From the IMG/VR virus record IMGVR_UViG_3300045988_121463: a stretch of 64,000 nucleotides of DNA. The stretch is one strand, 5' to 3'. This DNA comes from a virus. Each line of letters begins with the position of its first letter. The stretch's first letter is position 1. Under the pieces are notes generated by a model. The model was not told where the DNA came from. It saw only the letters and a list, made by a program, of their open reading frames with translations, and did not search any database. Of the stretch, positions 61,509-63,143 are shown in pieces. The position numbers and the translations under genes are program-made.

Positions 61509-63143
61509 TTATATTTTTATTTTCTTAATTTCTTCAATCATATTCTTATATTCACAGAACTTGCTGTTAATAACATCGAAGATAGATTCTGACCAGCCAG
61601 CTATGTTCAAGATATTAGATCCTCTGTAAAACATCTCACTTCCATATCCTTGAATAGAAATAGAAACGATTTTGCAATTTGGATTCACTTTTTTAAACCC
61701 TTTCAAAAGTTCAGCGAATTTACCATATCCATAACTGGAACTTTTCTCCCATACAACAGATTCACCGTCTCCTATCTGCATATCTGAAATAACGTACAAG
61801 TTATCTACTTTGATCTTATCTTTAGCGCACTTATCCAAGAATGCAAAAAGACCGTTTTCGGTAGCACCACCGCAGTCTCTTCCGGCAGTAAAAGATTTTT
61901 TGTTGTTCCATAAAACACCTTTACTTCTATCATATTCGTAGTTGATAAGTTTGTCACCAAACATACCAATAAATACGTCAGGAAGCACAGAAGCAATCAT
62001 ACAGCCAAACAAGTTACCAATGACAGCCGTATTTGTTTTGCTAAAGGCAGACACTTCAGAAGATCCTCCCATATCTCCACGTACAGAGCCAGAGTGGTCA
62101 ATCAGGATAGCCGACCGCCCCTCCAATACCGGCAGGTTCTTGCAGGAGATGGTTATGGCTTTCTCAAACGCATCTAAAATCTTATCTTTGTTACGCGCTG
62201 TTAATTTAGCACGTTTTTTATCCGACTCAAATACAATATCATTTTCGGAATCATCAGTGCCTATATTTTCAACCTCTTTGTAAGCTGAAGCAAAACGGAA
62301 AGGAAGCATCTTCGAATTAAGCACCTTCTCTTCTATTGTAAGCTGCCTACAAACTTCATCTATTTGATCAGGCGCGTATTTGATTATGTTTACAAGGTTA
62401 CGAACCATATTAAAAATAGGCATACCTTTTACATTAGAAACCACGTCCCGAATAGCGTCACCTAAAGCTTCTTTCTTTTCCTTATTGTCTTTCTTGTCCT
62501 GTCCGGCTTTAGACATTTCTTTTTCAAGAATCTTGCTTTCGTATAATCCATACAAAGACCTACCTTCTATAAGGTACTGGAAAGCCGTTTTGTTAGCCTG
62601 ATTGCCTTTGGGGTGAAATAAGTTTACGAGGTCAACCATAGTAATGACCCTACTGTCCATCTTGTATTTGTCAATCCGATACGGATCAAGACCTTCCAAA
62701 GCTGTCTTAAACCCTTTCTTAATAGCACTGGATATACCTCTTAACTTCTTTGGATTTTTGTCGTTAAGAGCCGCATAACAGCCAAGGATTTCGCTCATAT
62801 CATCAGGACGCATAACGATCTTATTATAGAACCTTGAAGCCCATTCCTTACCCGATGCTTTGCTGGCAAGGACAGAAGCCATAAGATGCGTAACAGACCG
62901 CAGCTTCCCTTCCTTCCGGACATACAATGCCGTCTGTGCTGCAAAATACGGATCCACTTGGTCCATAAGATTCTTAATTCTTTCTACTTTGTCTTTTTCT
63001 TTCTCATAATAAGAATCAGACAACATGGTAGTCATTACCGTAGACACCAACTCCTCTTCTGCGTTGGGCTTATATGCCTTCTCGCCCATGTGATTCACGA
63101 TCGTAGGTTTAACACCTTCATCCTTTTTGTTAAACTTTCCCAT
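61509..63143 (-). CDS. rsr: Ro60/Rsr-like ribonucleoprotein (TROVE plus vWA domains)
   Basis: N-terminal TROVE-like region with an ALYVRKEGKLR-type segment. C-terminal vWA with MIDAS DHSGS (ILIDHSGSVRGD). At 544 aa it is similar in size to bacterial Rsr. Confidence 0.65.
   Translation of the reverse strand: MGKFNKKDEGVKPTIVNHMGEKAYKPNAEEELVSTVMTTMLSDSYYEKEKDKVERIKNLMDQVDPYFAAQTALYVRKEGKLRSVTHLMASVLASKASGKEWASRFYNKIVMRPDDMSEILGCYAALNDKNPKKLRGISSAIKKGFKTALEGLDPYRIDKYKMDSRVITMVDLVNLFHPKGNQANKTAFQYLIEGRSLYGLYESKILEKEMSKAGQDKKDNKEKKEALGDAIRDVVSNVKGMPIFNMVRNLVNIIKYAPDQIDEVCRQLTIEEKVLNSKMLPFRFASAYKEVENIGTDDSENDIVFESDKKRAKLTARNKDKILDAFEKAITISCKNLPVLEGRSAILIDHSGSVRGDMGGSSEVSAFSKTNTAVIGNLFGCMIASVLPDVFIGMFGDKLINYEYDRSKGVLWNNKKSFTAGRDCGGATENGLFAFLDKCAKDKIKVDNLYVISDMQIGDGESVVWEKSSSYGYGKFAELLKGFKKVNPNCKIVSISIQGYGSEMFYRGSNILNIAGWSESIFDVINSKFCEYKNMIEEIKKIKI

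What the first reader, a model, noticed from the sequence alone, without database searches (positions are those of the whole stretch)
61509..63143. Ro60/Rsr orthologue (TROVE plus vWA) encoded next to tail genes
A 544-aa protein combines a TROVE-like N-terminus with a vWA domain bearing the DxSGS MIDAS motif, which is the Ro60/Rsr architecture. In bacteria and some phages, Rsr works with Y-RNAs (YrlA) to recruit exoribonucleases for structured-RNA decay. Here it sits between a virion lysin/HEXXH-peptidase pair and an array of tRNA-like RNAs, with its own upstream terminator.
Basis: partly seen in the sequence, partly recalled or inferred. Interest (0 to 1): 0.7.

Follow-up and report, generated by a model that had tools for sequence, protein, structure and literature searches.

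The report
Gut-phage Ro60/Rsr with Y RNAs
A common human-gut phage carries a true copy of the ring-shaped RNA-binding protein Ro60/Rsr, preceded by three small partner "Y RNAs" (two are labelled as tRNAs in the database); this is a correct but largely known kind of system.

Summary
ORF 61509-63143 (-) encodes a 544-aa protein with a Pfam TROVE hit (52 bits, cut-off 23). The MIDAS residues D349-x-S351-G-S353, T428 and D454 are invariant in 30 homologues. An AlphaFold model's 13 best PDB matches are all Ro60/Rsr structures, with Thermus phage phiLo Ro60 first.

The "tRNA-like array" upstream is three tandem Y RNAs on the same strand (about 63647-63229), bounded by a conserved promoter-like motif and a terminator 31 nt before the start codon. 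A covariance model built only from RNAs next to bacterial rsr genes finds all three: 76.7, 23.7 and 39.1 bits. Unit 1 has the YrlA layout. Units 2 and 3 are full cloverleaves inside the Y stem. ARAGORN and GenBank call them tRNA-Asp/Tyr and tRNA-Lys, but their acceptor stems are mismatched and their anticodons drift among near-identical phages.

A 97%-identical genome (csAssE-Sib, OR575929.1) already annotates the gene as "Ro sixty-related protein". A phage Ro60 with Y RNAs that bind host PNPase was described in 2025. Verdict: a new member of a known kind. The partnership with a host exoribonuclease is inferred, not shown. Interest is moderate to low.

The parts
61509..63143 (-). rsr: 544-aa Ro60/Rsr orthologue (TROVE ring plus vWA)
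   Evidence: ORF. Pfam TROVE, 52.1 bits. PHROG 850 over the full length. AF2 model pLDDT 76.3. The top 13 Foldseek PDB hits are all Ro60/Rsr. The family profile matches 9l5y at 6e-33, 1yvp at 5e-16 and 2nvo at 5e-12.
62481..63005 (-). Stretch matched by the Pfam TROVE model (residues 47-221); the helical repeats continue to about residue 336
   Evidence: All-helical secondary structure from residue 28 to 336 in the model.
61554..62126 (-). C-terminal vWA domain (about residues 340-530). MIDAS residues: D349, S351, S353 (62085-62099), T428 (61860-61862), D454 (61782-61784)
   Evidence: The residues are invariant in alignment A2. The model shows an alternating beta/alpha pattern. Foldseek hits to isolated vWA domains follow the Ro60 hits. 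The profile aligns to the vWA part of Ro60 chains. Pfam's vWA_Ro60 HMM does not hit this protein itself and hits its homologues only below threshold.
63175..63200 (-). Intrinsic-terminator-like hairpin (11-bp stem, then a T run) between the Y RNA array and rsr
   Evidence: Fold energy -15.5 kcal/mol, z -5.1. The 72%-identity relative L082 has a hairpin of different sequence followed by a T run at the same place.
63229..63358 (-). Y RNA unit 3. Y stem: outer helix AAUGAG/CUCAUU, bulged U, GG/CC, internal loop, inner helix GGGGUUAGU/ACU(C)ACUUC, then UUACUUCGA. The stem encloses a complete tRNA-like cloverleaf, called tRNA-Lys(UUU) at 63259-63332
   Evidence: Bacterial-only covariance model R1: 39.1 bits, E 6.5e-10. 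Cofold. ARAGORN and Rfam tRNA, 53.3 bits. Acceptor stem with 3 mismatches, discriminator U, no CCA.
63377..63503 (-). Y RNA unit 2. Y stem: ACGGA/UCUGU, bulged U, GG/CC, inner helix GGAG(U)UCGG/CCGGCUCC, then UUACUUCGA. The stem encloses a degenerate cloverleaf, called tRNA-Asp(GUC) at 63405-63477, with G33 instead of U33
   Evidence: R1: 23.7 bits, E 6.5e-6 with filters off. Natural deletion alleles keep the stem and lose the cloverleaf. A compensatory U.G to A-U change occurs in L069. Rfam tRNA score is only 34.7 bits.
63514..63647 (-). Y RNA unit 1, YrlA-type: Y stem (AAGACAG/CUGUUUU, bulged U, GG/CC, GGAAGGUG/CACCUUCC), AUACUUCGG, then T arm, acceptor-like stem-loop and D arm
   Evidence: R1: 75.4-76.7 bits, E 1e-19 to 3e-17. 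Rfam YrlA 28.5 bits, below the gathering score of 69. MFE -37.9 kcal/mol, z -3.2. 14 of 40 pairs show compensatory changes against 2.7 in shuffles.
63654..63705 (-). Candidate promoter (TTTG-N19-TATATTTG, 63675-63705) and a conserved 5' leader hairpin UAAUC-AAGAGA-GAUUA (63654-63669) in front of unit 1
   Evidence: Pattern match. The block is conserved in relatives with 89% and 72% Rsr identity, while flanking intergenic sequence diverges. The 26-nt leader occurs once in the window. Promoter function is inferred from the published Bacteroidetes consensus (own knowledge) and was not tested.

Best explanation
The locus is a compact Rsr/Y RNA module carried by a prevalent human-gut phage of the csAssE-Sib lineage (crAss-like virion gene names).

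Shown:
- The protein is a Ro60/Rsr orthologue: a TROVE helical-repeat ring plus a vWA domain with an intact MIDAS site.
- Directly upstream on the same strand lie three tandem RNAs of about 130 nt that share the stem module found next to rsr genes across bacterial phyla. The module runs: variable outer helix, bulged U, GG/CC, asymmetric internal loop starting UGA, variable inner helix, invariant (G/A)UACUUCG.

Inferred:
- One transcript starts at the conserved Bacteroidetes-type promoter, yields the three Y RNAs and mostly stops at the hairpin 31 nt before the ATG. Read-through makes rsr mRNA, so the RNAs outnumber the protein.
- Rsr binds the conserved stem module. GGUGAU corresponds to the published GNCGAA motif, UUAC to the published YUAY, and units 2 and 3 carry CGAA itself.
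- The tRNA-like domains (one YrlA-type, two Yrn1-like full cloverleaves) dock the RNP on host tRNA-recognising or RNA-decay enzymes, most likely the host PNPase. This follows the bacterial RYPER complex and Thermus phage phiLo, where the phage RNP attenuated PNPase.
- The net effect would be to re-route or dampen 3'-5' decay of structured RNA during infection.
For: - Protein identity.
- Y RNA identity: sub-threshold Rfam YrlA hits at the syntenic place in four divergent loci.
- Motif distribution: GTTACTTC[GA] occurs 71 times on the rsr strand against once on the other strand in 53 bacterial rsr loci, 62 of them 82-1553 nt upstream.
- Independent model: R1, built only from 35 bacterial RNAs, finds just these units in the 64-kb window. 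With default filters u1 scores 75.4 bits and u3 39.1 bits. With filters off u2 scores 23.7 bits.
- Stem covariation: cognate 5'/3' strands of 10 instances cofold at -18.35 kcal/mol against -11.36 +/- 1.03 when partners are permuted, 0 of 100000 permutations.
- Covariation within unit 1.
- Terminator and spacing. Conserved promoter block.
- Mechanism precedent: PMC4201824 (YrlA, its motifs, 22 phages) and PMC12135203 (phiLo Ro60 binds two upstream Yrl RNAs with CGAA, forms a complex with host PNPase and attenuates it).
- The crAss001 TROVE gene is an early gene (PMC8375218).
Against: - Nothing here shows expression, RNA ends, Rsr-RNA binding or any contact with PNPase.
- The Rfam YrlA model is far below its gathering score (28.5 against 69).
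- The exact published motif GNCGAAN0-1G is not present in the stem; only a variant is.
- Unit 2 scores low with R1 (23.7 bits).
- The promoter motif is not enriched in the window (4 found, 1.6 expected) and rests on conservation alone.
- The AF2 model is only of moderate confidence (pLDDT 76, pTM 0.63), so the ring geometry was not inspected in detail.
- The phiLo result (attenuation) and the Deinococcus result (specialised degradation) point in opposite functional directions, so the direction of the effect is unknown.
Confidence: 0.65

Rival explanations
1. Only unit 1 is a Y RNA. Units 2 and 3 are genuine decoding tRNAs (Lys-UUU and Asp/Tyr) that the phage supplies for its AT-rich codon usage. 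Their complementary leader and trailer are just precursor sequence removed by RNase P and RNase Z.
For: - ARAGORN and Rfam both call them tRNAs (53.3 and 34.7 bits).
- Unit 3 has a canonical 7-nt anticodon loop, U33, and good D and T loops.
- Its anticodon stem shows compensatory changes in L069 and L079.
- UUU is kept in nearly all of the 78 close relatives analysed.
- GenBank annotates them as tRNAs.
Against: - The acceptor stems have 3 (u3) and 2 (u2) mismatches, discriminator U and no CCA. The four other tRNAs annotated in the same phage genome all have perfect 7-bp acceptor stems.
- u2 has G33 here, 6- or 8-nt loops in some relatives, and is called Tyr, Cys, Asn, Asp or nothing in phages whose Rsr proteins are 96-98% identical.
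- Deletion alleles drop the cloverleaf and keep the stem.
- The leader and trailer are the same module as in unit 1 and in bacterial rsr-linked RNAs.
- Y-stem-wrapped 'tRNAs' also sit next to rsr in cr111_1 (Gln) and Lachnospiraceae (Pro).
Confidence: 0.15
2. The module serves tRNA-damage surveillance, repair or anti-defence rather than bulk RNA decay. The full tRNA mimics (Lys-UUU and GUN-type loops, the usual targets of anticodon nucleases) act as decoys or sensors, and Rsr works with phage RNA-repair enzymes.
For: - The anticodon-like loops called here and in relatives are UUU, GUA, GUC, GUU, GUG and GCA.
- The complete relative csAssE-Sib is annotated with a polynucleotide kinase/3'-phosphatase, an NrnA-like phosphodiesterase and a CCA-adding/poly(A) polymerase-like enzyme.
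- rsr is linked to RNA repair genes in bacteria and jumbo phages (PMC7790460 abstract; PMC7824862).
Against: - The repair genes lie outside the window and far from rsr, no RNA ligase is annotated, and they were not verified here.
- An unbiased test shows no clear concentration of variation in the anticodon loops: u3 p 0.27, u2 allele a p 0.50, u2 allele b p 0.027.
- There is no PADLOC hit.
- The loop identities may be chance.
Confidence: 0.1
3. Rsr is a virion or ejected cargo protein, because its gene sits inside the late structural block (muzzle protein upstream, tail lysozyme downstream).
For: Gene position and shared orientation with structural genes.
Against: - It has its own conserved promoter-like block and terminator.
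- The crAss001 homologue is an early, non-structural gene in a different genome position (PMC8375218).
- No structural PHROG hit: PHROG 850 is in the 'DNA, RNA and nucleotide metabolism' category.
Confidence: 0.03

Closest known systems
Thermus phage phiLo Ro60 with Yrl1/Yrl2 (PDB 9KOP, 9L5Y; PMC12135203)
   Same: - A phage-encoded TROVE plus vWA ring protein.
- Best structural (E 5e-16, TM 0.76 on target) and sequence (profile E 6e-33, full length) match.
- Several Y RNA-like genes directly upstream on the same strand, carrying a CGAA motif in a stem-bulge-stem.
   Different: - About 22% identity in the structural alignment.
- This protein is about 45 aa longer, with insertions between the ring and the vWA domain and directly after the MIDAS DxSGS.
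- Three RNAs rather than two, with clear tRNA-like domains.
- Bacteroidales-type gut phage rather than a thermophile phage.
- Binding to PNPase is shown for phiLo only.
Salmonella/bacterial YrlA (Rfam RF02553; Chen et al. 2014, PMC4201824)
   Same: - Unit 1 has the YrlA order: 5' stem, V region starting YUAY (UUAC), T arm, acceptor-like stem-loop, D arm, 3' stem.
- It lies within 4 kb of rsr on the same strand.
   Different: - It scores 28.5 bits against a gathering score of 69.
- The stem motif is GGUGAU(G) rather than GNCGAAN0-1G.
- It belongs to a sub-family (GUUACUUCG signature) seen here in Clostridia, Cyanobacteria, Bacteroidota and gut phages, which the Rfam model detects poorly.
Deinococcus radiodurans Rsr / Yrn1 / PNPase (RYPER)
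   Same: - Rsr fold match (2nvo, E 1e-11).
- Units 2 and 3 share with Yrn1 the orientation in which an anticodon-like arm lies between the D-like and T arms and the Rsr-binding stem takes the acceptor side (described in PMC4201824).
   Different: Units 2 and 3 are complete cloverleaves good enough to be called tRNAs, whereas Yrn1 has only partial D features and a 6-nt loop. No exoribonuclease partner has been identified here.
Bacteroides phage crAss001 Gp96 (TROVE, early gene)
   Same: - Gut crAss-like phage with a TROVE protein.
- The 900-nt gene-free gap next to it holds four same-strand UUACUUCAA motifs (0.22 expected) within unannotated tRNA-like elements.
   Different: - Only 25% identity.
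- The RNAs lie downstream, not upstream.
- The motif sits in an insert replacing the anticodon arm.
- The gene lies in the early region at the genome end rather than among structural genes.

Membership tests
Ro60/Rsr protein family | TROVE domain recognised above the curated threshold | tested here: met
   PF05731, 52.1 bits against a cut-off of 23, E 7.8e-14.
Ro60/Rsr protein family | Full-length fold: helical-repeat ring followed by a vWA domain | tested here: met
   The AF2 model (pLDDT 76.3) aligns over 532-580 columns to all solved Ro60/Rsr chains. These fill the top 13 hits, with TM 0.56-0.76 on target. The central cavity itself could not be inspected.
Ro60/Rsr protein family | C-terminal vWA domain with MIDAS residues DxSxS...T...D | tested here: met
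   D349, S351, S353, T428 and D454 are invariant in 30 homologues. The profile aligns to the vWA part of 1yvp, 9nen and 2nvo. Caveat: the Pfam vWA_Ro60 HMM does not hit this protein and gives only 24.9-26.7 bits (cut-off 27.7) for homologues.
Ro60/Rsr protein family | Binds Y RNA and misfolded RNA | not testable with these tools
   Only the genetic linkage to Y RNA genes was tested (met).
Bacterial Y RNA (YrlA type) | Encoded within 4 kb of rsr on the same strand | tested here: met
   Units lie 86-504 nt upstream of the ATG on the minus strand.
Bacterial Y RNA (YrlA type) | Reaches the Rfam RF02553 gathering score | tested here: not met
   28.5 bits against 69. Relatives score 30.6-33.3 bits.
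Bacterial Y RNA (YrlA type) | Matches a model of rsr-adjacent RNAs built without this sequence | tested here: met
   R1, built from 35 bacterial RNAs: u1 76.7 bits, u3 39.1 bits, u2 23.7 bits. With default filters at E up to 1 the only hits in the 64-kb window were u1 and u3.
Bacterial Y RNA (YrlA type) | 5'/3' stem carrying the GNCGAAN0-1G Rsr-binding motif | tested here: inconclusive
   The stem has covariation support. The motif is the variant GGUGAUG. CGAA itself occurs in the adjacent invariant UUACUUCGA of units 2 and 3.
Bacterial Y RNA (YrlA type) | Permuted tRNA-like domain (T arm, acceptor-like stem-loop, D arm) | tested here: met
   Met for unit 1. Not met for units 2 and 3, which have the normal D, anticodon, T order and so resemble the Yrn1 orientation.
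Bona fide tRNA (units 2 and 3) | Cloverleaf above the Rfam tRNA gathering score | tested here: met
   53.3 bits (u3) and 34.7 bits (u2) against 29.
Bona fide tRNA (units 2 and 3) | Fully paired 7-bp acceptor stem and a usual discriminator | tested here: not met
   u3 has 3 mismatches and u2 has 2; both have discriminator U and no CCA. The Met, Gln, Arg and Cys tRNAs of the same phage lineage are fully paired.
Bona fide tRNA (units 2 and 3) | Anticodon stable among close relatives; U33 and a 7-nt loop | tested here: not met
   u2 is called Tyr 48, none 24, Cys 5, Asn 2, Asp 1 and irregular loop 3, among 83 related sequences that carry the array (one more, L003, lacks it). The window has G33. 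u3 is mostly Lys, with Asn, Glu, Tyr and His variants.
RYPER-type complex (Rsr, Y RNA, PNPase) | Y RNA tethers Rsr to a host 3'-5' exoribonuclease | not testable with these tools
   Precedent only (PMC4201824, PMC12135203).

The most novel reading that the evidence does not exclude
Units 2 and 3 are neither tRNAs nor ordinary Y RNAs. They would be Rsr-presented full tRNA mimics whose anticodon loops (Lys-UUU and GUN/GCA types) track host tRNA-targeting nucleases or modification enzymes. That would make this a phage counter-defence or tRNA-damage-sensing RNP that co-operates with the phage's kinase/phosphatase and CCA-adding-like enzymes.
Probability: 0.08. Interest if true: 0.7.

Novelty: new member of a known kind. 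Interest (0 to 1): 0.35.

Why it matters
Three points are practical and one is an untested lead.

- **A prevalent lineage for studying phage Rsr.** This phage lineage is common in human gut metagenomes. Its Rsr clusters hold thousands of sequences, and 175 IMG/VR stretches encode a relative. That gives an abundant system, with cultured crAss001 as a more distant relative, for asking what Ro60/Y RNA particles do for a virus.
- **Annotation.** Two "tRNA" features next to rsr in public phage records are probably Y RNAs.
- **A poorly detected sub-family.** The Rfam YrlA model barely detects a large Y RNA sub-family marked by GUUACUUCG. That sub-family spans Clostridia, Cyanobacteria, Bacteroidota and gut phages.
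- **Possible link to autoimmunity.** From my own knowledge, and not tested here, Ro60 orthologues of gut commensals have been proposed as triggers of anti-Ro60 autoimmunity. An abundant phage-borne orthologue would be another such source.

Tried and rejected
- **Rfam at gathering thresholds.** It found only one tRNA. The YrlA hit appears only below threshold.
- **Degenerate leader pattern against IMG/VR.** Most hits were chance matches. Only loci of the same phage and L090 also encoded Rsr. L090 proved useful: its Rsr is 32% identical and two modules lie upstream.
- **First count of variable sites in the anticodon loops.** It used regular expressions that fixed most positions, so it was biased and I discard it. 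The alignment-based repeat shows no convincing hot spot.
- **Pfam vWA models on the C-terminal half alone.** No hit. The domain was established by fold and profile instead.
- **NCBIfam and PADLOC.** No hits.
- **Promoter scans.** The sigma-70-type scan was not above shuffles. The count of the Bacteroidetes-type motif was not significant.
- **Folding units 2 and 3 alone.** Uninformative, with z -0.2 and +0.5. Their stems became clear only by comparison.
- **Literature.** Two reviews on bacterial Y RNAs were not held in the library. No paper on csAssE-Sib was found.
- **Pseudogene or chance-ORF reading.** Rejected because intact homologues are widespread.
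Full report
**1. Observation**

The ORF is real and lies at the stated coordinates: 61509-63143, minus strand, ATG start, 544 aa.
- It hits Pfam TROVE (PF05731) at 52.1 bits against a curated cut-off of 23 (E 7.8e-14, residues 47-221).
- It matches PHROG 850 "RNA-binding protein" over its whole length (E 3e-30).
- In an alignment of 30 homologues (32-92% identity), those residues plus T428 and D454, the rest of a MIDAS site, are invariant.

**2. Protein fold**

An AlphaFold2 model built on that alignment has mean pLDDT 76.3 and pTM 0.63. Residues 28-336 are all helical, followed by an alternating beta/alpha domain.

Foldseek against the PDB puts only Ro60/Rsr structures in the first 13 places:
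- Thermus phage phiLo Ro60 (9kop, 9l5y; E 5e-16 to 2.5e-14, TM 0.72-0.76 on the target).
- X. laevis Ro60 (2i91, 1yvp, 1yvr).
- Human Ro60 (9nf8, 9nfa, 9nep, 9nen).
- D. radiodurans Rsr (2nvo, E 1.3e-11).

All align over 532-580 columns. Isolated vWA domains follow from rank 14.

A sequence profile of the family also reaches these chains:
- 9l5y at E 6e-33, over the full length.
- 1yvp at 4.7e-16, 9nen at 1.6e-15 and 2nvo at 4.6e-12; these three alignments cover the end of the ring and the vWA domain.

Pfam's own vWA_Ro60 model misses this protein and gives 24.9-26.7 bits (cut-off 27.7) for two homologues. The likely reason is that this clade has insertions right after the DxSGS and between ring and vWA.

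**3. Origin and prior annotation**

- The window is 96.7% identical over the locus to phage csAssE-Sib (OR575929.1; 151 kb, human gut).
- In that record the gene is already annotated "Ro sixty-related protein", and the two upstream features are annotated tRNA-Lys and tRNA-Tyr.
- The record uses crAss001 virion names (muzzle, ring), and the gene lies between the muzzle protein gene and a tail lysozyme.
- Relatives at 96-98% protein identity are very common: 175 IMG/VR stretches encode a relative, and protein clusters hold 2158 and 3666 member sequences.
- More distant phage homologues include cr111_1 (54%, Crassvirales) and crAss001 Gp96 (25%). Gp96 is a known early gene (PMC8375218, PMC10136315).

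**4. The upstream RNAs**

The 600 nt between the preceding gene and rsr hold three tandem units on the rsr strand. Each starts (A/G)UGGUGA and, exactly 13 nt later, carries UUCG(A/G).

What the standard tools call:
- Rfam gives a sub-threshold YrlA match for unit 1 (28.5 bits, gathering score 69).
- Equivalent YrlA matches occur at the same position in relatives with 89% and 72% Rsr identity. A third occurs in a 56% relative, about 4.7 kb downstream of rsr inside a tRNA array (30.6-33.3 bits).
- ARAGORN calls units 2 and 3 tRNA-Asp(GUC) and tRNA-Lys(UUU).

Cofolding the 5' and 3' ends of 11 instances gives the same architecture every time. The instances are the three window units, three from L082, two from L084, two from L090 (whose Rsr is only 32% identical) and one deletion allele. 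The architecture runs as follows:
- an outer helix of variable sequence;
- one bulged U;
- GG/CC (or AG/CU);
- an asymmetric internal loop beginning UGA;
- an inner helix of variable sequence;
- (G/A)UACUUCG.

Support for the stem:
- Cognate strands are much more stable than permuted partners: -18.35 against -11.36 +/- 1.03 kcal/mol, with 0 of 100000 permutations as low.
- Within unit 1 homologues, 14 of 40 predicted pairs show compensatory changes against 2.7 +/- 1.5 in shuffles and 0-2 in slid controls. The caveat is that the structure was derived from the same eight sequences.

**5. Link to bacterial Y RNAs**

- In 53 rsr loci from bacterial genomes and MAGs (27-54% identity; Bacteroidota, Clostridia, Cyanobacteria and others), GTTACTTC[GA] occurs 71 times on the rsr strand in 30 loci, and once on the other strand.
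- Of those 71 sites, 62 lie 82-1553 nt upstream of rsr, often as 2-6 tandem copies with the same 5' context.
- I built a covariance model only from 35 of these bacterial RNAs.
- Searched against the whole window on both strands at E up to 1, it returns only unit 1 (75.4 bits, E 3e-17) and unit 3 (39.1 bits, E 8e-8).
- With filters off it also returns unit 2 (23.7 bits, E 6.5e-6). The three hits tile 63652-63222.
- The model also finds units next to rsr in cr111_1, where one wraps the annotated tRNA-Gln, weakly in crAss001, and in Prevotella and Lachnospiraceae loci.

Compared with Chen et al. 2014 (PMC4201824):
- GGUGAU(G) sits where their GNCGAAN0-1G Rsr-binding motif is.
- UUAC matches their YUAY at the start of the V region.
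- Unit 1 has their T arm, acceptor-like stem-loop and D arm order.
- Units 2 and 3 instead have the normal D, anticodon, T order with the Y stem on the acceptor side. That paper describes this orientation for D. radiodurans Yrn1.

**6. Are units 2 and 3 tRNAs?**

Probably not functional ones.
- Their acceptor stems have 2 and 3 mismatches, the discriminator is U and no CCA is encoded. The Met, Gln, Arg and Cys tRNAs annotated elsewhere in csAssE-Sib are fully paired.
- Unit 2 has G33 in the window.
- In 84 related sequences, nearly all from phages whose Rsr proteins are 96-98% identical, unit 2 is called Tyr, Cys, Asn, Asp, an irregular loop or nothing.
- Four alleles, and the 72% relative, have lost the cloverleaf but kept leader and trailer. 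One of them shows a compensatory U.G to A-U change in the inner helix.
- Unit 3 is better conserved: UUU in nearly all, with compensatory anticodon-stem changes in two loci. A released tRNA-Lys-like species therefore cannot be excluded.
- My first impression that variation concentrates in the anticodon loops did not survive an unbiased test: p 0.27, 0.027 and 0.50 for the three allele groups.

**7. Expression logic (inferred)**

- A block containing TTTG-N19-TATATTTG and an 18-nt leader that can form a small hairpin is conserved in front of unit 1, even in the 72% relative. By published knowledge this matches the Bacteroidetes promoter consensus.
- A strong hairpin plus T run follows unit 3. 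It is replaced by a different hairpin in the 72% relative.
- The T run ends about 31 nt before the rsr ATG, which leaves no room for a separate promoter.
- The simplest reading is one transcription unit in which the terminator sets an excess of Y RNA over rsr mRNA.
- One of 80 IMG/VR relatives lacks the array altogether.

**8. Mechanism**

The protein identity and its genetic pairing with Y RNAs are shown. The rest is inferred from precedent.
- Bacterial Y RNAs tether Rsr to PNPase (PMC4201824).
- The phiLo phage Ro60 binds two upstream Y RNA-like transcripts, forms ternary complexes with host PNPase and attenuates it (PMC12135203).
- I therefore favour a phage RNP that engages host RNA-decay or tRNA-recognising enzymes. 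The direction of the effect is unknown.
- A link to RNA repair is possible. csAssE-Sib is annotated with a polynucleotide kinase/phosphatase and a CCA-adding/poly(A) polymerase-like enzyme. Comparative work on jumbo phages places TROVE proteins with RNA repair systems (PMC7824862). These genes lie outside the window, far from rsr, and were not verified.

**9. Verdict**

The system is a new member of a known kind and its protein is already annotated in GenBank. What this analysis adds:
- the definition of the three Y RNAs;
- the likely mis-annotation of two of them as tRNAs;
- the recognition of a widespread GUUACUUCG Y RNA sub-family that the Rfam model detects poorly.

Noticed in passing
window 60983-61447 (-): A 154-aa ORF directly downstream of rsr contains HECLH (an HEXXH motif). 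It matches only PHROG 1365 (function unknown), with no Pfam, NCBIfam or PADLOC hit. The csAssE-Sib record annotates a shorter 137-aa version as hypothetical.
   Followed up: partly
window 58579-61050 (-): An 823-aa protein carries two Phage_lysozyme2 (tail lysozyme) stretches and weak tape-measure PHROG hits. It overlaps the end of the HEXXH ORF.
   Followed up: partly
L209 (crAss001, MH675552.1) 5810-6716: The unannotated 900-nt gap just downstream of the TROVE gene Gp96 holds four same-strand TTACTTCAA motifs (0.22 expected). It also holds tRNA-like elements whose anticodon arm is replaced by a long insert carrying the motif (Rfam tRNA hit at 6084-6227, 46.6 bits). These are probably the crAss001 Y RNAs, in a different topology.
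   Followed up: partly
L086 (cr111_1, MT774387.1) 2884-3026 and 3253-3333: The bacterial Y RNA model hits two places upstream of the cr111_1 Rsr homologue (27 and 30.7 bits). The first wraps the annotated tRNA-Gln. In the same way, 'tRNA-Pro' calls about 70 nt upstream of rsr in Lachnospiraceae loci (L215-L221) coincide with a model hit in L217.
   Followed up: partly
L222, L225, L228, L233, L234, L238, L240 (bacterial rsr loci): Many bacterial rsr genes sit next to arrays of 4-12 ordinary tRNA genes, interleaved with Y RNA units.
   Followed up: no
L003 (IMGVR_UViG_3300045988_112200) 2600-3000: One of 80 close relatives lacks the whole Y RNA array. Similarity to the window begins inside the 3' trailer of unit 3, and the upstream DNA is unrelated. 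It could be a natural recombinant or an assembly chimera.
   Followed up: partly
L014 and L077, about 2480-2630; L055 and L041: There is copy and allele turnover in the array. Two relatives carry an unrelated sequence in place of unit 1, starting GGAUGGUGAUUAAACAGG and lacking the UUCG motif. Others carry recombinant units (unit 1 head on unit 2 tail; unit 2 head on unit 3 tail).
   Followed up: no
OR575929.1 3537-4409, 2615-3571, 137063-137725 (outside the window): The complete relative is annotated with a polynucleotide kinase/3'-phosphatase, an NrnA-like phosphodiesterase and a poly(A) polymerase/CCA-adding-like nucleotidyltransferase. It also has a separate cluster of four normal tRNAs (6667-7027).
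   Followed up: no
OR575929.1 45751-47816, 58986-60125 and 64190-65413 (outside the window): The same genome carries a diversity-generating retroelement (VR, TR and reverse transcriptase) aimed at a putative tail fibre, and two TnpB-family genes.
   Followed up: no
window 12417-12441 (+): This is the only other match in the window to the loose leader pattern TGGTGA-N-YTTCGR. It lies inside a plus-strand ORF and is not hit by the covariance model, so it is taken as chance.
   Followed up: yes
L084 (Logan ERR10610486 contig, 116 kb) 11400-13600: A phage-like contig (methyltransferases, ClpP, DHFR) encodes a 56%-identical Rsr. It carries two strong YrlA-type units (59.5 and 62.9 bits) embedded in a nine-tRNA array about 4.7 kb downstream of rsr. 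One unit has an extra arm with a CUUUUAA loop.
   Followed up: partly
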